Source: a virus | Length of the DNA: 45,034 nucleotides | Reading direction: 5' to 3' (one strand) | Virus genome (UHGV): UHGV-0114729 | Shown: piece by piece, positions 24,261-37,315 of the stretch | Layout of the letters: each line of letters opens with the position of its first letter | Numbering within the stretch: position 1 is the first letter of the stretch | Notes under the pieces: model-generated | What the model was told of the DNA's origin: nothing | Seen by the model: the letters and a program-made list of their open reading frames with translations, nothing else | The model's database searches: none | Made by a program: the position numbers and the translations under genes

Positions 24261-25148
24261 TTAATCCCTATCTAAAATCCCTTTCTTATAAGCCCTAGCA
24301 AGATAAAGTAGGTTACTTTCCTTATCATCACTATGTAAAATCTCAGCATGCTTATCACTTACTTTAATGAATCCCTTCGCAGCCTGCAGAAGCCCCAAAC
24401 CTGTCACCAACGGATTTTCCGTGTCGCTAACACTAATAATCGCTCCTAAAACAATATTAACCATATCGTCAGAACCTGGCATTTCAAAACTTAAATTGTA
24501 GCGATTTAAGAACCAACCTTTATTAATTTCACTAATTCTGTTTATATCTTCCAAGGAATTACGGAAGCGTTCATAAGCCTTTTTTTGAAAAAGCGGCTCA
24601 TCGGGAGCATAAGCAACATCTTGGTATAAGTCATCCAGATAATTATGGAACGCATCATAATCAACTTTATATTTATGCTTAAACTCAAGTATCTGCTCAG
24701 GATGGATATGTGGTCCGGGAACAGGAAGTGCATCAAAGAGTTCAAGTTTTAAGTTCGTATTTCTATCACTTGTCCCATTCCCCCCTATAAATTCCTCTCC
24801 TATCTGATGTAAATTCCAGTCACGCTGAGGCTCATCCTTCCTTAACTTACTAAGTATCTCAACCTGACGTTTTGGGAACTCTATCGGGTACTGATCGCTA
24901 TTGAATCCGATAGACACTACTGGTCTAGACAAAAAGTCCAAACCAATCAATATATCTTCTCGGGGTAATTGAAAATATATTTCTCTTGAGCCTGGAATTA
25001 CTAATCTATCCCAAAAAAGAGTGTAATAATTCAAATCTTCTTCATTCAACCCTCGCGCTGTCTGGAATCCACCAGTGGGCAAAACTTCCGTCATAACAGG
25101 TGAAGCAACAACACATCTTTCCACAATATTCCCCTTAGTAGTTTTCAC
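24261..25148 (-). CDS. Orphan 295-aa protein, AT-rich moron between Rz and cos (function unknown)
   Basis: Long ORF in a visibly AT-rich tract flanked by AT-rich non-coding DNA. The start is uncertain: the track start is GTG with no clear SD. I recognise no motif with confidence. Confidence 0.7.
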   Translation of the reverse strand: MKTTKGNIVERCVVASPVMTEVLPTGGFQTARGLNEEDLNYYTLFWDRLVIPGSREIYFQLPREDILIGLDFLSRPVVSIGFNSDQYPIEFPKRQVEILSKLRKDEPQRDWNLHQIGEEFIGGNGTSDRNTNLKLELFDALPVPGPHIHPEQILEFKHKYKVDYDAFHNYLDDLYQDVAYAPDEPLFQKKAYERFRNSLEDINRISEINKGWFLNRYNLSFEMPGSDDMVNIVLGAIISVSDTENPLVTGLGLLQAAKGFIKVSDKHAEILHSDDKESNLLYLARAYKKGILDRD

Positions 25149-25398
25149 TCAAAAGCTTAGGAGAAAGTAACTATCACACCCACAAAAAAAAGTAAACGAA
25201 AAATACTGTATACTTGATTTGGATTATGAAACTCTATCAGTCACGCTTGTGGCAATAATAAAAATAATCGACAACATCGGAATACCTAATAAACAATCAT
25301 CTCAAAAATGAAATCTACTAGCATTTTTCAGAACGTCTTTTTCATAAACTAGTACATAGAACAGTTTGACTGACTTCATAAAATTTATTTTTCCCTAG

Positions 25399-25920
25399 TT
25401 AATGAGATGCTCGAACATTTTCTATCTCTCGAATCCCTGCAAAGCGCTTGTTGCCCTTTTCGATAAGTGACAGTAACGGTTTTATCCAAAGCACTGCCTG
25501 ACAATATGTCATTGGGCTGGTGGTAACGGCACGATCATCGGCTGAGTTAAGTTTGTCGGTATCGGTGTGCATGGCGCTGGCACGTAAACGGTACGCGTAT
25601 TCGAGCAGCCCACCAGCAATGTCAGCAGGAACAGGCAGATCACAGGTTTTTTCACGGCGGAGAATCTCCCGGTATTCGATAACTGTTTCTTCAGTACTGG
25701 TGTCGATCAGGGAGTTAAGCCTGATGGCATGTTCGGCAACCTGATTGAATCGATTGAAGTTGAATGCCTGGGTGGCGATCACCTGCCCCTGCATAGAATT
25801 GTCGCTTCGCAGAACGTCGTTATCGCTCTGAAGGCTACTGGCGTCGGAGCAACTCTTAACGAGAGCGACCGAAAGGACAGCAATAACAACAACGCCGATA
25901 AGACCCGGATTAATTTTCAT
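25399..25920 (-). CDS. Rz: i-spanin (Rz-like)
   Basis: N-terminal TM (MKINPGLIGVVVIAVLSVALV) with a periplasmic coiled part. The ATG overlaps the endolysin stop (ATGA). Confidence 0.8.
   Translation of the reverse strand: MKINPGLIGVVVIAVLSVALVKSCSDASSLQSDNDVLRSDNSMQGQVIATQAFNFNRFNQVAEHAIRLNSLIDTSTEETVIEYREILRREKTCDLPVPADIAGGLLEYAYRLRASAMHTDTDKLNSADDRAVTTSPMTYCQAVLWIKPLLSLIEKGNKRFAGIREIENVRASH
25509..25655 (-). CDS. Rz1: o-spanin lipoprotein (Rz1-like) embedded in the +1 frame of Rz
   Basis: My own translation gives (GTG)KKPVICLFLLTLLVGCSNTRTVYVPAPCTPIPTNLTQPMIVPLPPAQ*. It has a lipobox (LLVGC), a Pro-rich mature part and GGGAGA upstream. It is below the ORF-track size cut-off. Confidence 0.75.
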   Translation of the reverse strand: MKKPVICLFLLTLLVGCSNTRTVYVPAPCTPIPTNLTQPMIVPLPPAQ

Positions 25921-26465
25921 TGGTCTAACCCCCAGCACGCCAGTGCGCTTTCCTGGTCCCGTCGCTCAACCTGACCATAGCAGCCATTCTTCTGGCCTTT
26001 GGTTAGACGGCAATCACGGCCACCGTCTTTAATCCACCAGCGGATAGCTTCACAGGCTCCTTTCGTATCGCCAGCATTAATTCGCTTATAGAACGTAGAC
26101 GGGAAACATTTTCCGGGGCCGATGTTATATGGGCAGAAAGAAGCGATACCCGCTTTCTGTGGTTCGGTCAGTGGTACTTTGATATTTCGGTCAACCCACG
26201 CCAGCGCCTTGTCGCGTTCAATGGCGTTTACCTGGGCGCATTTCTCAGCTGACAGCTTCATGCCCTGTACTACTGGCTTGCCATCAACCATTGTTGCACC
26301 ACGGCAAATGGTCCAGAGTCCGCCGCCGTCGCGATATGCTGTCAAGCTGTTACCCTCTTTCTCATCCAGAAACTGATCGAGAATCACGGGTGCGGAAGCC
26401 CCGGCAAGAATCAAACCAACGACCGCTGCGCTCAATTTATTCTTCAGCTTTAGAGACATAGCCAT
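25917..26465 (-). CDS. R: SAR endolysin (T4-lysozyme/GH24 type, R21-like)
   Basis: N-terminal weakly hydrophobic Gly/Ala-rich signal-anchor-release segment (LSAAVVGLILAGASAPVIL). Catalytic E-x8-D-x5-T (EGNSLTAYRDGGGLWT). Confidence 0.9.
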   Translation of the reverse strand: MAMSLKLKNKLSAAVVGLILAGASAPVILDQFLDEKEGNSLTAYRDGGGLWTICRGATMVDGKPVVQGMKLSAEKCAQVNAIERDKALAWVDRNIKVPLTEPQKAGIASFCPYNIGPGKCFPSTFYKRINAGDTKGACEAIRWWIKDGGRDCRLTKGQKNGCYGQVERRDQESALACWGLDQ

Positions 26466-26715
26466 TGCGCCGATCCTCCCGTTCTTTCCAGCGGAAATAC
26501 CAGTTCACTGCACAGGTGATTACCGTGCATGCGATACCGACAATAATTGCCCAGTCGCTCAGGCTTAACCCTGCAATTCTGTCGGCCAACATCCAGGACA
26601 CCTCTTTTGCTGTTTTTGCTGTTTCGGCATATGCCTTCGCTGATACACCGCAGCCGGTCAGCGTGGTGCCTGTTCCATATGAAAGTCTGCTGTAAATGGT
26701 GCTCATTCTGGTCAT
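26437..26715 (-). CDS. S: Pinholin (S21-like), dual-start motif MTRM
   Basis: ..YGTGTTLTGCG.. and SLSDWAIIVGIACTVITCAVNWYFRWKEREDRR parallel phage 21 S as recalled. Paired with a SAR endolysin. Confidence 0.8.
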   Translation of the reverse strand: MTRMSTIYSRLSYGTGTTLTGCGVSAKAYAETAKTAKEVSWMLADRIAGLSLSDWAIIVGIACTVITCAVNWYFRWKEREDRRNGYVSKAEE

Positions 26716-26824
26716 AGCCTCACCTCCGATTCTTCGGATGGCGCTGTGTGTGTATGAAAAGGATCAGGCTTCACTGGCTGGATTTATCAACAAAGCACGT
26801 AGCGGATGATTCCCGGAAGCCTGA

Positions 26825-26851
26825 AATAAAAAAGCCCCGCTATTACGGGGC
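26825..26851 (-). terminator. Rho-independent terminator after the HEPN-like moron
   Basis: Minus strand reads GCCCCG-taatag-CGGGGC followed by TTTTTTATTT. Confidence 0.8.
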
Positions 26852-26865
26852 AGTTAATAGAATTA

Positions 26866-26893
26866 TAAAGTTTAAAAGTTTAAAAGTTTAAAG
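26866..26893. repeat. 8-bp tandem repeat (TAAAAGTT, about 3.5 copies) spanning the stop codon of the 213-aa gene
   Basis: Read directly: taaagtt taaaagtt taaaagtt taaagg. Confidence 0.9.
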
Positions 26894-27521
26894 GAACCAT
26901 AAAGCTACCAGGCTCTGCACCAGCTTCTTTATTTATTTCTTTACGGATTACCTCATTAATCTGAAAAGCCTCATTGTATACTTTTTCTAAGTTAATTGAC
27001 GCCTTCATATTATAGTATGTTTTTTCCTCACAAACATATAACCTTATCGGATATGGCCTAGGGTTGATTGCCTTCCAGTGGGAGATCACAAAATTATAAA
27101 CTGCAATACCATGACCTTTCATCTTCCCTGCTGTAACATCAATGTTTAGCTGATCTAAATACTCATCGAAGTGTTGCAAGGTGTTTCTCACCCTCACGGA
27201 ATTAATTTCCTTAATTTCAATATCTTTTATTTTTTCTTGAAGGTAATTACTTCGCTTAATATGCAATCTGAATTGTTCAGGGGATTCTTCCCTAGTCTGA
27301 TTTTTAGGAACTGCGATTAGTTTCTTGACGTTAGCCGCATCTGAAAGAATACTATTTATTAATATATGAATATTGTAATCAATTTTAAAGTAGTAACCAG
27401 CATCAGGAAGTGGTGTCTCATGAAAGAGCTCTTCACAGCGTGTTTTTATCGAATGAGTTAACAACCATAATTCGTGCAAATAAATAAAATTAAGTTTCAT
27501 TTGCTCAAAGGTTTTTGACAT
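26880..27521 (-). CDS. HEPN-like (Rx4H) 213-aa protein, AbiU2/AbiV-style candidate abortive-infection RNase; AT-rich moron
   Basis: Strong RBS (AAGGAG, 8 nt upstream). Motif VRNTLQHFDEY matches the R-N-x3-H HEPN signature. All-helical-looking, very AT-rich, with its own terminator. Confidence 0.75.
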   Translation of the reverse strand: MSKTFEQMKLNFIYLHELWLLTHSIKTRCEELFHETPLPDAGYYFKIDYNIHILINSILSDAANVKKLIAVPKNQTREESPEQFRLHIKRSNYLQEKIKDIEIKEINSVRVRNTLQHFDEYLDQLNIDVTAGKMKGHGIAVYNFVISHWKAINPRPYPIRLYVCEEKTYYNMKASINLEKVYNEAFQINEVIRKEINKEAGAEPGSFMVPLNF

Positions 27522-30251: not shown

Positions 30252-30418
30252 GCTGATTTTCTCCTCGCTGCGAGACGCAGCCATTTCTGATCCACCAGGC
30301 GGGCGGTGTAGTCTTTCAGGGTCGGGATATCGGATGGCTTAACCGCGGGCTTAGGCTTGCGGCGCGCCGGAACGCGGAAGATTTCATTGGTGATGACGCG
30401 AGAAAGTGGAGTAGACAT
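30248..30418 (-). CDS. ninE: NinE-like small protein (56 aa)
   Basis: My own translation gives [56 protein letters not shown]. It resembles the lambda NinE C-terminal half. Coupled to both neighbours. Confidence 0.6.
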
Positions 30419-30873
30419 CAGGCCTCCTGCTTATCGCGCAGTTGCTGGTACTCGCAGCCGGTCGGGATAGTCAGCGCCAGGCCGAACTGAGCGCACCACA
30501 TTTCAACCTTCACCAGGAAGATATGCATTTCCCCGGTGTCGAGGTCTGCGGTGTGGCGCGGCTCCCAGGTGGTGGTCTTCTCACCGGTGATGAAGTCGGT
30601 ATAAGTCACCTCTTCGCAGCCGAGATAGGTCTTTTTGAGGTTGCGCTTAACCCACTCTGGGGTAGCGTCAGTGCGCCCGGATTTAATCAGGTATTCACTG
30701 ATTTCAGCCAGCCACATATGAAGAAGTGAATTTTGAGACAGGCTGCGCTTCTCTCTCCACGGCTTAATTTGAAGGCGGAAGCATTGCCCGTCATTCAGAA
30801 GTGGGTGAAGGTGCTGGGTGATAGCATTAATATTGCCACGATGTAGCTTGATGCCGTCTTTTGGGAGAATCAT
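30418..30873 (-). CDS. ninB: NinB (Orf) recombination mediator
   Basis: RSLSQNSLLHMWLAEIS parallels lambda NinB RSLDQNRKLWACLGDVS. Confidence 0.85.
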   Translation of the reverse strand: MILPKDGIKLHRGNINAITQHLHPLLNDGQCFRLQIKPWREKRSLSQNSLLHMWLAEISEYLIKSGRTDATPEWVKRNLKKTYLGCEEVTYTDFITGEKTTTWEPRHTADLDTGEMHIFLVKVEMWCAQFGLALTIPTGCEYQQLRDKQEA

Positions 30874-30965
30874 ACGTCACCTCCGAGAGGTAACGCAGAA
30901 TGCAGAAAATCGCAGGTGCCGTTAAGCATCTGTGACAAGGTGATACGTTCAAGTTGTGGTCGCAT
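30870..30965 (-). CDS. Possible 31-aa ORF coupled to the ninB start
   Basis: ATGA overlap with the ninB ATG. No other support. Confidence 0.25.
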   Translation of the reverse strand: MRPQLERITLSQMLNGTCDFLHSALPLGGDV

Positions 30966-31053
30966 TTAATGTCCCCATCAAATGCGCAGAAGTCTTACCG
31001 TCGGGCGTTCAACTCCGACGGCGACTTAATTATGGCTGGTTGATTACTGAAAA

Positions 31054-31638
31054 TCAAAGGTCTTCTTCGTCTTGGTATTTCAGCCTTTTGTCTTTTATTT
31101 TCTGAAGTCTTTCCTCAAGCGCTGGAAGAACCCACTTTGCAAGTTCGGTAGCAGGGAAGCCATTCTCTTTACGGATTCCCGAAGCAATCTCAGCAGCTTT
31201 TAATCCAAGTAAGGAAAACTGGTATTGTCTCTCATCGAAGTACTCTCGATGATCTGGAGGTGAAGACATGTATTCACCGACAAAATTAATAGATTTTATA
31301 GCCTCATTTTGCTTCATTGGAAGGCTGCAAATTTCATACATTGTTTTAGATTTCAGAGACTTCCAGTTTCCCTTAACTAATGAATAGTCAATTTTTTCAG
31401 GAAGCTTTGTTGTAGATTCATACTCACCTTGCTCACCATTAGCCTCGCCATCATCCTGGACAACCTCAGCACACTTAACAGCATAGTTTTCAAGGAGGAA
31501 TACCAATTCTGCACAAATGAATTTTCTTTCTGGGCTAGACTGCTTATTTTCTTTGAACCACCCGATAAAGTGGTTTGCACCATGGCCTATTACTGCCCCG
31601 ATTGCACCACCGATCATTGAACCAACCCACAGTTCCAT
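31054..31638 (-). CDS. Membrane-anchored 194-aa orphan (N-terminal glycine-zipper TM helix)
   Basis: GGGAG RBS. MELWVGSMIGGAIGAVIGHGANHFIGWF is followed by a soluble domain. Part of the AT-rich island. Confidence 0.75.
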   Translation of the reverse strand: MELWVGSMIGGAIGAVIGHGANHFIGWFKENKQSSPERKFICAELVFLLENYAVKCAEVVQDDGEANGEQGEYESTTKLPEKIDYSLVKGNWKSLKSKTMYEICSLPMKQNEAIKSINFVGEYMSSPPDHREYFDERQYQFSLLGLKAAEIASGIRKENGFPATELAKWVLPALEERLQKIKDKRLKYQDEEDL

Positions 31639-31647
31639 TTAGGCTCC

Positions 31648-31911
31648 CTATTTAGTATTGGCTTCTGTCATTTCTATGTAACGTGGATCGCTTGCCTTAG
31701 GAAGTTTCAAACTCTCCTCCCGATAATGTCTCAACCGTTCAAGGAAATAATCTCGCAAATGCTCGGGCTGCTCGCGCATAACCACTTCGGCGATAACCGG
31801 CATGTTCAGCCGCTCTTTGTACGCCACGCCGGAGGCTGCAAGGTCAACGTTAACCTTGTCGCGTTCCTCTTGGCTCTTTGCAGCAATATTGAAGTCGTTC
31901 ATAATCATCAA
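31648..31911 (-). CDS. 87-aa orphan, co-transcribed upstream partner of the 194-aa gene
   Basis: 9-nt spacing to the next gene. AT-rich. No recognisable motif. Confidence 0.6.
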
Positions 31912-31967
31912 CTCATTCGTTTTAATAGAACGTATCTTACGTCAGATAACCGCTGCTGAGACCAATT

Positions 31968-32147
31968 ATGCGCGCAAAGATCCATCGTTACTGCTCATGG
32001 ATATTTTTTATCGTACTTTTCCTGTTCCTGTTTGCTCTCTATCAGAAAGCGTACTTGGGTGTCGCCCTCAATCAAATTATCATTGCAACGCTTGCCGTTA
32101 CTGGTTTTCTCGGTTGGATTACGAGAGAAAAGCATCCCAAGAATTGA
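31968..32147 (+). CDS. 59-aa two-TM small hydrophobic protein, divergent from the 87-aa gene
   Basis: My own translation gives MRAKIHRYCSWIFFIVLFLFLFALYQKAYLGVALNQIIIATLAVTGFLGWITREKHPKN*. Followed by the hairpin GGCCACT-atga-AGTGGCC. Weak RBS. Below the track cut-off. Confidence 0.5.
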   Translation: MRAKIHRYCSWIFFIVLFLFLFALYQKAYLGVALNQIIIATLAVTGFLGWITREKHPKN

Positions 32148-32193
32148 GTAAATGGCCACTATGAAGTGGCCGGCTCATCGTAAAAATTAGCGT

Positions 32194-32562
32194 TCAAATG
32201 CCATCGGCACCCTGAAGCATGGCGGCGCGGCAGGCGTTCCAGCCGACTGCTTTTCCATGCTCAAACGCGCTGTCAAAGTCATCATCCATTTCCATCGAAT
32301 CAGGCACAGATACCGGCGCTGGAGGGGCGGTGTAAAGCGGCGTTACTTCTCGCAGCGGGTCGGCATAAGCATTGCCACTATCGAAGCTGACGTTGTTTTT
32401 TGCGCCGCCGCCTGACAGCAGCCACGCCACCGGCTCCGCTTCGAGCGATGCCAGCGCGATACGCGCCAGCTCATTCAGGATTGCCACATCAGCGTGACCG
32501 AGGGTGTATCCAGCTTTCAAATCGGCAACTGCTTGCACGGCCTGTTTGGTAATAGTGCTCAT
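32194..32562 (-). CDS. Hypothetical nin-region protein (122 aa)
   Basis: Backbone GC and packed arrangement. The ..PVAW...TPLYTAPP... pattern is common in lambdoid early-region ORFs. Confidence 0.7.
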   Translation of the reverse strand: MSTITKQAVQAVADLKAGYTLGHADVAILNELARIALASLEAEPVAWLLSGGGAKNNVSFDSGNAYADPLREVTPLYTAPPAPVSVPDSMEMDDDFDSAFEHGKAVGWNACRAAMLQGADGI

Positions 32563-32572
32563 AGGCTAGTCC

Positions 32573-32755
32573 TCAGTATCCAGAGTACGCGCGGAGTGAT
32601 GCTATTCTCGCGGTGATATCATTGATGATTTCCTGCACCACCACTGCGTGCTCATGCTCATCACGCAAGATGTCAAGGGCGCTGTCTATTTCACGGAGCA
32701 TATCCTGCTGCCATTCAATATCTTCTGATTCCGGTATTTCGTATTTCATGCTCAC
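32573..32755 (-). CDS. Hypothetical 60-aa acidic protein
   Basis: Its start overlaps the stop of the upstream gene. Confidence 0.6.
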   Translation of the reverse strand: MSMKYEIPESEDIEWQQDMLREIDSALDILRDEHEHAVVVQEIINDITARIASLRAYSGY

Positions 32756-36287: not shown

Positions 36288-36521
36288 TTAGGCCGCAGTA
36301 TCACGCGGCGATGCGAATACCAGGCTTTCTTTTAGGACCGGAGCCTGGCGGTGAAAATTCTTCGTGCCTTTCTCGATAGCAGATGCCATTTCTGGAGATG
36401 CCCGGCGATTTCCGTAGGCGATCTGGTCCAGGTAACCTGGCGTCGTGTTAGCCAACTTTGCGAGCTGCGCCCATTCGTCGGTAGTGGCGGCCTTGCGCCA
36501 GCGGTGTAGTTCAGTGCTCAT
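36288..36521 (-). CDS. cro: Cro / YdaS-like HTH repressor
   Basis: 77 aa, divergent from cI across the operator region. HTH segment is WAQLAKLANTTPGYLDQIAYGNR. Confidence 0.8.
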   Translation of the reverse strand: MSTELHRWRKAATTDEWAQLAKLANTTPGYLDQIAYGNRRASPEMASAIEKGTKNFHRQAPVLKESLVFASPRDTAA

Positions 36522-36553
36522 TGGTGTCTCCGGGTGAGTCGTTTGATTTGGAG

Positions 36554-36619
36554 TTTAGCGTTATGCTAAATACTACGCAAGCATCATTTAGCAATTTGCA
36601 CATTTATCATTTTGCTAAA
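36554..36619. promoter_or_regulatory. OR operators / pR-pRM region
   Basis: TTTAGC-GTTAT-GCTAAA (36554-36570), a degenerate copy near 36587-36603, and TTTATC-ATTTT-GCTAAA (36603-36619). Confidence 0.7.
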
Positions 36620-36637
36620 AGCAGTAACAATGCAGGT

Positions 36638-37315
36638 ATGGAAAATAAAGAAATCAGAAAAGCCAACCTGGAAGCGCTGTACGAGAAGCGTCAGCACGAG
36701 TCTGGAATGACCAAAGCGCAGTTTGCCGAGCTCATCGAGACAAGTCCGGCTGCGCTTAGCCAGCTACTGGGACCAAACCCTCATCGCAATATCGGCGATA
36801 AGATGGCTCGCAAAATTGAAACTGCGCTTGATCTGCCTTTTGGCTGGATGGATGTTTTACACGCCAGTGAAGAACCTTCGAACGTTGCATTTCGAGGACT
36901 GAACGAGACAAAAGGAAGTTATCCTGTAATCAGCTGGGTAAGCGCGGGGCAATGGATGGAAGCTGTAGAACCTTATCACCGAAGAGCGATAGATCGCTGG
37001 TATGACACGACTGTTGACTGCTCAGAAGATTCATTCTGGCTGGACGTTAAAGGGGATTCTATGACCTCCCCGGCTGGACTGAGCATACCCGAGGGAGCAG
37101 CGATACTTGTTGATCCTGAAGTCGAGCCGCGCAACGGAAAGCTGGTTGTCGCGAAGCTAGAAGGCGATAACGAAGCGACCTTTAAGAAGCTTGTAATCGA
37201 TGCCGGCAGACGCTTCCTAAAGCCCCTTAACCCCGCATATCCCATGCTAGAAATTAATGGAAACTGCAAAATCATCGGCGTTGTGGTTGATGCCAAAATA
37301 CTAAACATCCCATAA
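36638..37315 (+). CDS. cI: CI repressor (HTH + S24 LexA-like autopeptidase)
   Basis: HTH (MTKAQFAELIETSPAALSQL). GDSM Ser and FKKL Lys dyad. Start chosen at MENKEIRK. Confidence 0.92.
   Translation: MENKEIRKANLEALYEKRQHESGMTKAQFAELIETSPAALSQLLGPNPHRNIGDKMARKIETALDLPFGWMDVLHASEEPSNVAFRGLNETKGSYPVISWVSAGQWMEAVEPYHRRAIDRWYDTTVDCSEDSFWLDVKGDSMTSPAGLSIPEGAAILVDPEVEPRNGKLVVAKLEGDNEATFKKLVIDAGRRFLKPLNPAYPMLEINGNCKIIGVVVDAKILNIP

What the first reader, a model, noticed from the sequence alone, without database searches (positions are those of the whole stretch)
31054..32147. Three-gene AT-rich island of membrane proteins inserted in the nin region
SEEN:
- A visibly AT-rich block lies between ninB and the backbone ORF at 32194.
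- On the minus strand, an 87-aa ORF is followed 9 nt later by a 194-aa protein with an N-terminal glycine-zipper TM helix (GSMIGGAIGAVIGHG).
- Transcribed divergently from a 56-bp intergenic region, an unannotated 59-aa two-TM peptide sits at 31968-32147 (plus strand) and is followed by a GGCCACT/AGTGGCC hairpin.
- The divergent region contains a small palindrome, ACGTA-TCT-TACGT (31930-31942).

I recognise none of the three proteins.

INFERENCE: The composition and layout suggest a horizontally acquired module. It could be a membrane-acting superinfection-exclusion or abortive-infection system, or a small-toxin/regulator pair, rather than a nin recombination function.
Basis: inference. Interest (0 to 1): 0.6.

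Follow-up and report, generated by a model that had tools for sequence, protein, structure and literature searches.

The report
Theta-gene accessory island in lambdoid phage
This AT-rich block next to ninB is a real patchwork accessory island in a lambda-like phage, holding a small membrane-protein gene, a copy of a host DNA-polymerase helper (theta/Hot), and an untested candidate anti-phage membrane protein, but nothing shows they work as one three-gene membrane system.

Summary
All three ORFs exist at the stated coordinates and the block is low in GC (0.43 against 0.52 for the window). The reading "three unrecognisable membrane proteins forming one module" is only partly right.

- **87-aa ORF.** It is not a membrane protein. 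It is a close homologue of phage P1 Hot and E. coli HolE, the theta subunit of DNA polymerase III.
- **194-aa ORF.** It has an N-terminal glycine-zipper anchor and a cytoplasmic four-helix bundle. It matches PADLOC's PDC-S67, an untested candidate defence family. That family is also common on enterobacterial plasmids, for example in the IncR backbone next to resD.
- **59-aa plus-strand ORF.** It is a genuine, selected gene for a two-helix membrane protein of an unnamed family. It runs antisense to the lytic operon and is followed by a hairpin.

Comparative loci show a theta-centred cassette. The small gene often lies divergent from theta. The 194-aa gene nearly always lies 9-12 nt downstream of theta or of a decayed theta pseudogene. 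Each gene also persists without the others, and other cargo genes replace the 194-aa gene between theta and a conserved junction element. The palindrome is at chance level. The function of the two membrane proteins remains inferred.

The parts
31029..31059 (-). Conserved junction element CTTTGATTTT-N15-CCATAAT, which contains a promoter-like TTGATT-17-CATAAT. It marks the left edge of the variable cargo slot. The TGA stop of the 194-aa gene lies inside it.
   Evidence: It occurs once in the window with 0 expected. It is present once in 24 of 78 fetched loci, immediately 3' of whatever cargo gene is there and 5' of ninB, dinI or DUF1367. E. coli prophages that lack the island match 30900-31057 only.
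30998..31021 (.). Inverted repeat CCGTCGG...CCGACGG just downstream of the junction element, between the island and ninB.
   Evidence: Read from the sequence. The equivalent inverted repeat is kept, with sequence changes, in L002, L004, L067 and L074. Its function was not tested.
31054..31638 (-). Gene for a 194-aa protein with an N-terminal glycine-zipper membrane anchor and a cytoplasmic four-helix bundle bearing a beta-hairpin. It is a member of the PADLOC candidate defence family PDC-S67 (phrog_33426).
   Evidence: - PADLOC gives E = 6.1e-45 over the full length. PHROGs gives 1.2e-29 with function unknown. There is no Pfam or NCBIfam family.
- The family has 1,166 representative relatives.
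- Residues C56, D62, G64, P80, W92, R137, G145 and R156 are conserved in at least 93% of 139 sequences.
- pN/pS is 0.11-0.34.
31639..31647 (-). 9-nt spacer, TAG-GGAGCCTAA-ATG on the minus strand. It carries a GGAG Shine-Dalgarno for the 194-aa gene, which implies co-transcription with theta.
   Evidence: Read from the sequence. The same 9-12 nt arrangement follows theta or its pseudogene in all related prophage loci that have one.
31648..31911 (-). Gene for a homologue of the DNA polymerase III theta subunit, the phage P1 Hot type. It is 84 aa from the ATG at 31902 or 87 aa from the TTG at 31911.
   Evidence: - Pfam PF06440 gives E = 5.5e-35 at 119 bits against a cut-off of 34.6.
- NCBIfam NF008207 gives 109.6 bits against a cut-off of 97.
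- PDB 1SE7/2IDO (P1 HOT) matches at E = 2.9e-36 over 76 residues. E. coli theta 1DU2 matches at 9e-21.
- RefSeq annotates it as theta in E. coli YPE10.
31877..31905 (+). Promoter-like site TTTGCA-17-CATAAT facing the small gene and overlapping the theta start codon. A second candidate -10 element, TATCTT, lies at 31933-31938.
   Evidence: It is a consensus match only. The theta 5' remnant that carries it is retained next to the small gene where the rest of theta is lost, in L012-14 and L037. The second -10 position reads TATAAT in Klebsiella L026 and TATCAT in L012. Neither site has been shown to function.
31930..31942 (.). Palindrome ACGTA-TCT-TACGT. It is probably a chance feature that overlaps the candidate -10.
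   Evidence: The window has 49 such palindromes against ~44 expected. It is not preserved in L012, L026 or L009.
31968..32147 (+). Gene for a 59-aa two-helix membrane protein of an unnamed family. It is antisense to the early-right operon and has the same orientation as the repressor gene.
   Evidence: - There are 15 homologue clusters of 59-63 aa at 37-98% identity.
- pN/pS is 0.13-0.31 with pS 0.48-0.74.
- A homologue is annotated as a hypothetical protein in phage PhiR30_1, in the same slot.
- AF2 predicts helices 2-25 and 30-52.
- The repressor gene at 36521-37315 is on the + strand.
32145..32177 (.). Stem-loop (core 32154-32171) between the convergent ends of the small gene and the upstream 122-aa gene. 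It resembles a bidirectional terminator but has no T-run.
   Evidence: It folds at -18.5 kcal/mol on the + strand (z -3.8) and -14.7 kcal/mol on the - strand (z -3.9). A stable hairpin follows the small ORF in L010, and weaker predicted stems, not above shuffled controls, follow it in L011 and L012; the sequences differ. L011 has a T-run. HK639 has an annotated terminator after the orthologous upstream gene. The simple terminator scan did not call it.
32194..32562 (-). Backbone gene of 122 aa that has lost its C-terminal domain at the right edge of the island.
   Evidence: The HK639 orthologue is 170 aa and matches as far as ...AAMLQ. RefSeq flags the YPE10 copy as a pseudogene 'missing C-terminus'.

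Best explanation
The block is a mosaic accessory island in the variable slot between the replication/ea22-type genes and ninB of an HK225/phi80-like lambdoid phage. It is built around a theta (hot/holE-like) gene.

**Shown**
- The middle gene encodes a close homologue of P1 Hot.
- The 194-aa gene follows it after 9 nt with its own GGAG ribosome-binding site. It belongs to the PDC-S67 family of N-terminally membrane-anchored four-helix-bundle proteins.
- The 59-aa gene is a selected, independently oriented gene for a two-helix membrane protein, with a hairpin at its 3' end.
- Theta followed by the 194-aa gene is an old linkage in prophages. Theta has decayed repeatedly while the 194-aa gene stays under purifying selection.
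- Other cargo genes occupy the same place between theta and a conserved junction element.

**Inferred**
- The theta homologue binds and stabilises the epsilon proofreading subunit of the host replicase, as P1 Hot does. It is made, together with the 194-aa protein, from early-right-operon read-through.
- The 194-aa protein sits in the inner membrane with its bundle in the cytoplasm. It acts as a protective device carried by mobile elements, either exclusion or abortive infection against incoming phage or DNA, possibly through glycine-zipper oligomerisation.
- The small antisense gene is a lysogen-expressed moron made from its own promoter, which overlaps the theta start.
- The three products act independently, not as one system.

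**How the confidence splits.** The figure of 0.55 is for the whole statement. Gene identities and the mosaic architecture are about 0.9. The protective role of the 194-aa protein is about 0.35.
For: **Gene identities**
- Theta.
- PDC-S67. The IncR protein and an RM-adjacent relative hit the same model.
- Small gene as coding.

**Island status and edges**
-.

**Linkage**
- Theta or a theta pseudogene lies 9-12 nt upstream of the 194-aa homologue in the window, L001, L004, L005 and L063-L074. This includes L074, where the 194-aa protein is 58% identical and theta 77%.
- The small gene is divergent from theta in L002, L026-29 (57% and 76% identity) and L032-39.

**Independence**
- The 194-aa gene stays intact and selected (pN/pS 0.11-0.34) where theta is broken.
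- Alternative cargo of 73, 84 and 159 aa sits after theta.
- The small gene occurs with other neighbours or alone.

**Defence lean**
- A relative lies beside a methylase/specificity fusion and another beside AAA_21+RloB in the same prophage slot.
- 4 of 8 other PDC/HEC candidates protected when tested.

**Orientation**
- The repressor is on the + strand and the early-right genes are on the - strand.
Against: - No member of PDC-S67 has been tested.
- Most family members found are on plasmids, 2,055 PLSDB records. There they lie in an operon with a ResD-type recombinase in the maintenance region. This fits a maintenance role at least as well as defence.
- The fold is a generic helical bundle with no informative match.
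- No convincing minus-strand promoter precedes theta or the 194-aa gene in the window, so expression in the lysogen, which a prophage defence gene needs, is not supported.
- Promoters for the small gene are consensus matches only, and the hairpin lacks a T-run.
- The recurrent theta linkage could mean a functional tie that I discount.
Confidence: 0.55

Rival explanations
1. The 194-aa family is a maintenance or recombination accessory factor of mobile elements, not an anti-phage protein. As a membrane-anchored protein it would work with DNA-handling partners: a ResD-type tyrosine recombinase on plasmids and the replisome via theta in phages. It could, for example, tether or organise element DNA at the membrane. 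Its PDC label would then reflect hitch-hiking of small recombinase modules into defence loci.
For: - On IncR plasmids the homologue overlaps the resD start by 4 nt and lies between vapBC and repB/parAB.
- The same arrangement, [~120 aa][homologue][115 aa or DUF2913][recombinase][ParA/ParM], occurs in L006-8, L016-19 and L023-24.
- The family is present in 2,055 plasmid records.
- It is persistently adjacent to theta in prophages.
Against: - Prophage copies have no adjacent recombinase.
- Theta decays while the gene persists, so no theta partnership is needed.
- One relative lies beside a restriction-modification fusion without a recombinase.
- The family was picked up by embedding inside BREX, DISARM or type I RM after mobilome filtering.
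Confidence: 0.2
2. The island is one functional system. On this view the small membrane peptide is a toxin or effector, and theta and/or the 194-aa protein act as its regulator or sensor.
For: - The small gene and theta are a recurrent divergent pair across diverged lineages.
- Theta and the 194-aa gene are a recurrent tandem pair.
- The small protein gives a weak PADLOC match to a 4TM CBASS effector, E = 3e-5.
Against: - All three genes occur together only in the window lineage (L001, L036/L063).
- The 194-aa gene occurs with theta but without the small gene in L064-66 and L074, and with only a dead theta in L004, L005, L067-73.
- The small gene occurs without either partner in L009-L011, L030-31 and L040-62.
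- Theta is a well-characterised replisome subunit homologue.
- The PADLOC hit covers only hydrophobic helices.
- No Rfam RNA was found.
Confidence: 0.08
3. The 194-aa protein serves the phage's own lytic cycle, for example host take-over, counter-defence, or exclusion of secondary infection during lytic growth. It would be expressed only with the delayed-early nin genes.
For: - It has the same orientation as the early-right operon and is translationally set up directly behind theta, with no predicted promoter of its own in the window.
- The slot lies downstream of a terminator-like hairpin, as in the lambda nin region.
Against: - The family is abundant on plasmids and in chromosomal, non-phage settings.
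- In L004 promoter-like sites lie inside the theta pseudogene just upstream of the gene.
- It persists in many prophages, including degraded ones.
Confidence: 0.15

Closest known systems
Phage P1 Hot (homologue of theta; PDB 1SE7, 2IDO) and E. coli HolE
   Same: The 87-aa ORF aligns over 76 residues to P1 Hot at E = 2.9e-36 and to E. coli theta at 9e-21. It passes the Pfam and NCBIfam cut-offs. It is phage-borne, like Hot.
   Different: It lies in a lambdoid nin-region slot rather than in P1. Here it heads a variable cargo position and is often pseudogenised in related prophages. Binding to epsilon was not tested.
PADLOC PDC-S67 (single-gene phage defence candidate, Payne et al. 2024 bioRxiv 10.1101/2024.01.29.577857)
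   Same: The 194-aa protein gives a full-length HMM match at E = 6.1e-45. It has the same architecture as other members.
   Different: The candidate family was defined by embedding inside BREX, DISARM or type I RM and is untested. Here the gene is prophage cargo behind theta. The window protein is a distant member, scoring 151 bits against 268 bits for P0037.
IncR plasmid backbone gene between vapBC (vagCD) and resD (WP_000129823.1)
   Same: It belongs to the same family, with 41% identity over residues 28-167 and the same PDC-S67 score. It has an N-terminal hydrophobic helix and is uncharacterised.
   Different: It is 247 aa with a longer N-terminus. It is translationally coupled to a tyrosine recombinase, and no theta is nearby.
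Membrane-anchored prophage exclusion proteins (HK97 gp15, T4 Imm, lactococcal Sie2009). This is an analogy recalled from the literature and was not tested.
   Same: They are small prophage- or phage-encoded inner-membrane proteins carried as accessory genes, the likely kind of role for the 59-aa and 194-aa products.
   Different: No sequence or profile similarity was found in Pfam, PHROGs, NCBIfam or PADLOC. Activity is unknown.
Lambdoid 'morons' and the mosaic nin region (Hendrix/Juhala concept, from established knowledge)
   Same: The block has lower GC than its flanks and is absent from close relatives. The small gene is antisense with its own 3' hairpin and a promoter-like site. Conserved boundary sequences lie at the junction.
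   Different: The island is composite, with three cassettes of different history. Two of its genes are oriented with, and probably read from, the early operon rather than being autonomous units.

Membership tests
DNA polymerase III theta / HOT (Pfam PF06440, NCBIfam NF008207) | Profile match above the curated cut-off over the whole ~70-residue domain | tested here: met
   Pfam gives 119.4 bits against a cut-off of 34.6, covering profile positions 2-68 of 70. NCBIfam gives 109.6 bits against 97.
DNA polymerase III theta / HOT (Pfam PF06440, NCBIfam NF008207) | Close similarity to the solved proteins P1 HOT and E. coli theta | tested here: met
   1SE7/2IDO match at E = 2.9e-36 over residues 4-79. 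1DU2 matches at E = 9.4e-21.
DNA polymerase III theta / HOT (Pfam PF06440, NCBIfam NF008207) | Binds and stabilises the epsilon (DnaQ) proofreading subunit | not testable with these tools
   This needs a binding or complementation assay.
PADLOC PDC-S67 candidate defence family | Full-length match to the PDC-S67 HMM | tested here: met
   E = 6.1e-45, residues 7-191 on profile positions 3-190 of 203.
PADLOC PDC-S67 candidate defence family | Genomic association with known defence systems (embedded or adjacent) | tested here: inconclusive
   This is not the case in the window. Relatives lie beside AAA_21+RloB (L004) and an N6_Mtase/Methylase_S fusion (L020). Most copies are in plasmid maintenance regions.
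PADLOC PDC-S67 candidate defence family | Confers protection against phage | not testable with these tools
   No paper in the library mentions PDC-S67. The authors list the PDCs as untested.
Type I toxin or small-toxin/regulator pair | Small hydrophobic membrane peptide | tested here: met
   The product is 59 aa with two hydrophobic helices.
Type I toxin or small-toxin/regulator pair | Cognate antisense RNA or an adjacent dedicated regulator that always co-occurs | tested here: not met
   There is no Rfam match. Neighbours differ between loci, and the gene occurs alone in L010, L011 and L040.
Type I toxin or small-toxin/regulator pair | Toxicity on over-expression | not testable with these tools
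   This needs an experiment.
Moron (autonomous accessory unit in a lambdoid genome), applied to the 59-aa gene | Absent from closely related phages and differing in base composition from its flanks | tested here: met
   It is absent from HK225, phi80 and HK639. Its GC is 0.43 against 0.58 for the neighbouring gene.
Moron (autonomous accessory unit in a lambdoid genome), applied to the 59-aa gene | Own promoter and terminator | tested here: inconclusive
   A promoter-like site lies at 31877-31905. A stable hairpin follows the ORF in the window and in L010, but the predicted stems in L011 and L012 are not above shuffled controls. There is no T-run and no transcript data.
Known superinfection-exclusion or abortive-infection proteins (Rex, Sie, Imm, Abi families in PADLOC, Pfam and PHROGs) | Sequence or profile homology to a characterised member | tested here: not met
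   Only the untested PDC-S67 matched, plus a weak hydrophobic match of the 59-aa protein to a CBASS 4TM effector at E = 3e-5.

The most novel reading that the evidence does not exclude
The position just downstream of phage theta genes, closed off by the conserved CTTTGATTTT...CCATAAT junction element, may be a previously undescribed cargo hot spot of lambdoid phages that exchanges small protective genes. On this reading the PDC-S67 protein found there, and on thousands of enterobacterial plasmids including the IncR backbone, is a new membrane-anchored anti-phage or anti-plasmid effector that works alone. The antisense 59-aa protein would be a separate lysogen-expressed membrane factor.
Probability: 0.25. 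Interest if true: 0.6.

Novelty: new member of a known kind. Interest (0 to 1): 0.36.

Why it matters
If the 194-aa protein is protective, one very common but ignored gene of clinical IncR and related resistance plasmids, and of lambdoid prophages, would gain a function. That would bear on phage therapy and on plasmid spread. The theta-linked slot with its conserved junction gives a simple handle for finding more small accessory genes in lambdoid phages. The 59-aa family adds a selected but mostly unannotated small membrane protein to the prophage repertoire. If none of this holds, the island is still a clean example of nin-region mosaicism, with repeated decay of a phage-borne theta gene.

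Tried and rejected
- **Near-identity search in phages.** A megablast of the island against 50,697 phage records found nothing. Only the flanks match HK225, phi80 and HK639.
- **Family scans.** Pfam and NCBIfam gave no family for the 194-aa or 59-aa proteins. The weak hits of the 59-aa protein (NMN_transporter, DUF998, SdpI, CBASS 4TM effector) cover only hydrophobic helices and fall below the cut-offs, so I rejected them.
- **Regulatory RNA.** The Rfam scan of 30700-32700 was empty.
- **Palindrome as an operator.** Rejected, because it is at chance frequency and is not conserved.
- **"Three fully independent cassettes".** This was my own first reading. I revised it when tblastn across 78 loci showed theta or its remnants upstream of nearly all prophage copies of the 194-aa gene.
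- **Literature.** Searches for PDC-S67 and for WP_000129823 found nothing. A search for a nin-region defence hot spot returned no paper that names ninB; I did not read its hits. IncR backbone papers name resD but not its upstream neighbour.
- **Theta remnant in L015.** A remnant upstream of the Franconibacter copy was looked for and not seen.
Full report
**Setting.** The window is a lambdoid phage or prophage related to HK225, phi80 and HK639. The early-right operon lies on the minus strand: replication genes, ea22/ren-type genes, ninB, ninE, ninI phosphatase, rusA and Q. The S24/HTH repressor lies on the plus strand at 36521-37315. The finding covers the stretch between ninB (30418-30873) and a backbone gene at 32194-32562.

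**Observation.**
- The island has GC 0.43 against 0.517 for the window, about two standard deviations low for its size. It is not the lowest, because 24.9-27.5 kb reaches 0.33.
- The hairpin at 32154-32171 is stable (z about -3.8 on both strands) but has no T-run on either strand.
- The 5-3-5 palindrome at 31930-31942 exists. Such palindromes occur 49 times in the window against ~44 expected, and this one is not conserved in relatives.

**What the genes are: the 87-aa ORF.** It is a DNA polymerase III theta homologue of the phage P1 Hot type.
- Pfam PF06440 gives E = 5.5e-35 and NCBIfam NF008207 scores above its cut-off.
- PDB 1SE7/2IDO (P1 HOT) matches at E = 2.9e-36 over 76 residues, and E. 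coli theta at 9e-21.
- It has no hydrophobic segment.

**What the genes are: the 194-aa ORF.**
- It has no Pfam or NCBIfam family, and its PHROG has unknown function.
- It matches PADLOC PDC-S67 over its full length at E = 6.1e-45.
- PDC systems are 145 untested candidates chosen because a member was found embedded inside a BREX, DISARM or type I RM locus. PDC-S67 appears in no paper of the library. In one study, 4 of 8 other PDC/HEC candidates protected against phage.
- The family is large, with 1,166 representatives at 50% clustering.
- An N-terminal hydrophobic helix is present in 95% of 138 diverged members. Residues C56, D62, G64, P80, W92, R137, G145 and R156 are conserved in at least 93%.
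- The AF2 model (pLDDT 83) shows a four-helix bundle with a beta-hairpin behind a low-confidence N-terminal segment.

**What the genes are: the 59-aa ORF.**
- It is a real gene. There are fifteen homologue clusters of 59-63 aa at 37-98% identity.
- pN/pS is 0.13-0.31 at pS 0.48-0.74.
- A 63-aa homologue is annotated as hypothetical in phage PhiR30_1, in the same slot and the same antisense orientation.
- AF2 predicts two helices, 2-25 and 30-52.
- No curated family contains it.

**Island edges.**
- On the right, the 122-aa backbone gene has lost the C-terminal domain present in HK639_59 (170 aa). RefSeq flags it as a pseudogene in E. coli YPE10.
- On the left, the stop codon of the 194-aa gene lies inside a conserved element, CTTTGATTTT-N15-CCATAAT (31029-31059, minus strand).
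- That element occurs once in the window (0 expected) and once in 24 of 78 fetched loci. It always sits immediately 3' of the cargo gene, whatever that gene is, and 5' of ninB, dinI or DUF1367.
- E. coli prophages lacking the island match only 30900-31057.
- Among 5,426 complete E. coli genomes, only YPE10 carries the whole island. MB20 carries the part with theta and the small gene.

**Linkage.** My first impression was three independent cassettes. A tblastn survey of 78 loci changed that.
- In the prophage and viral copies of the 194-aa gene, theta or a decayed theta lies 9-12 nt upstream. Theta is intact in the window, L001, L063-66 and L074, where the 194-aa protein is 58% identical and theta 77%.
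- Theta carries stop codons, frameshifts or internal deletions of different kinds in L004/L073, L005/L071, L067-70 and L072.
- One lineage, L015, shows no remnant.
- The 194-aa gene stays full-length and under purifying selection in all of these (pN/pS 0.11-0.34).
- So theta followed by the 194-aa gene is an old tandem. Theta has been lost repeatedly and the downstream gene does not depend on it.
- The 59-60-aa type of small gene is divergent from theta in L002, in Klebsiella L026-29 (57% and 76% identity) and in L032-39. It lies next to a short theta 5' remnant in L012-14 and L037.
- It also occurs next to int/xis (L011), in a non-prophage setting (L010) and in L040. The 63-aa type sits in the same slot with an acyltransferase and a lipoprotein instead.
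- Theta occurs without the small gene in HK639, L064-66 and L074.
- Between theta and the junction element, other phages carry unrelated genes of 73, 84 and 159 aa. The 159-aa one also has an N-terminal hydrophobic helix.
- All three genes together occur only in the window lineage.

**Outside phages.**
- The 194-aa family is found on 2,055 of 72,556 PLSDB plasmids, mainly from Klebsiella and Escherichia.
- In the IncR backbone it lies between vapBC and resD and overlaps the resD start by 4 nt. It scores the same on PDC-S67 as the window protein.
- Similar units of [~120 aa][homologue][115 aa or DUF2913][tyrosine recombinase][ParA/ParM] occur in other plasmids.
- Another relative lies beside a methylase/specificity fusion, and one lies beside AAA_21+RloB in the same prophage slot.
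- IncR papers name resD but not this neighbouring gene.

**Expression signals.**
- For the small gene, a promoter-like TTTGCA-17-CATAAT (31877-31905) overlaps the theta start. A second -10-like hexamer at 31933-38 reads TATAAT in Klebsiella.
- Retention of just the theta 5' end beside the small gene in L012-14 and L037 fits a promoter located there. This is inference.
- A stable hairpin follows the small ORF in the window and in L010. Weaker predicted stems, not above shuffled controls, follow it in L011, L012 and L009. The sequences differ between lineages.
- No minus-strand promoter was predicted ahead of theta or the 194-aa gene in the window. In L004, promoter-like sites lie inside the theta pseudogene.
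- Rfam finds no RNA family in the region.

**Interpretation.**
- The island is a theta-centred mosaic of accessory genes in the classic variable slot upstream of ninB.
- I take the theta homologue to act like P1 Hot on the host epsilon subunit.
- I take the 194-aa protein to be an autonomous, membrane-anchored protective factor of mobile elements. That function is inferred, at roughly one chance in three. A plasmid/phage maintenance role is the main rival because of the ResD linkage.
- I take the 59-aa protein to be a separately transcribed small membrane protein, probably made in the lysogen.
- The idea that the three form one system, or a toxin/regulator pair, is poorly supported by co-occurrence.

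**Novelty.** Theta/Hot is known, PDC-S67 is a known computational candidate, and nin-region mosaicism is textbook. What is new here:
- the placement of PDC-S67 behind theta;
- the repeated decay of theta;
- the conserved junction element and the alternative cargo it closes off;
- the membership of the IncR backbone gene in the family;
- the unnamed 59-aa family.

This amounts to a new member of known kinds, with a moderate lead for experiments.

Noticed in passing
window 30998-31059 (minus strand); also L001-L005, L015, L032-36, L039, L063-75: A conserved junction element, CTTTGATTTT-N15-CCATAAT (promoter-like TTGATT-17-CATAAT), followed by an inverted repeat. It sits immediately downstream of whatever cargo gene follows theta and upstream of ninB, dinI or DUF1367. 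It may be a recombination boundary or a promoter for the nin genes.
   Followed up: partly
L004 4831-4989, L005 4801-4946, L067-70 ~2880-2990, L072 ~2850-2990, L073 2831-2989: The theta gene upstream of the 194-aa homologue is pseudogenised in several different ways: stop codons, frameshifts, an internal deletion and an N-terminal deletion. The downstream gene stays intact. This points to repeated loss of a phage-borne theta.
   Followed up: yes
window 32194-32562 (minus strand): This backbone gene is truncated to 122 aa, against 170 aa in HK639_59, and has lost its C-terminal domain at the island's right edge. RefSeq marks the identical YPE10 copy as a pseudogene.
   Followed up: partly
window 24261-27521: This is the most AT-rich part of the window, with GC 0.33-0.35. 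It holds the lysis cassette (holin 26437-26715, lysozyme 25917-26465). It also holds an unknown 213-aa ORF between Q and the holin (26880-27521, no Pfam) and a DUF6236 ORF after the lysis genes (24261-25148). Both could be further cargo.
   Followed up: partly
L076 5824-6567 and L077 4824-5567 (IncR plasmids): An uncharacterised 247-aa IncR backbone gene lies between vapBC and resD and overlaps the resD start. It is a PDC-S67 family member at E = 3.6e-45. Homologues occur in 2,055 PLSDB plasmids.
   Followed up: partly
L002 3510-3989 (E. coli MB20) and L035: The alternative cargo gene behind theta encodes a 159-aa protein that also starts with a hydrophobic helix. It has no Pfam or PADLOC match and may be an analogue of the 194-aa protein.
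   Followed up: partly
L009 1235-2244 (phage PhiR30_1), L030-31, L041-62: The 63-aa variant of the small membrane gene sits in the same slot. It is paired with a gene annotated as an acyltransferase (no Pfam match) and a glycine-zipper lipoprotein gene upstream of ninB. This arrangement is common in E. coli prophages in IMG/VR.
   Followed up: no
L003 2747-2929 (HK639) and L074 2553-2735: Where the antisense small gene is absent, theta is preceded on the same strand by a conserved 60-aa basic ORF. In HK639 this ORF is unannotated.
   Followed up: no
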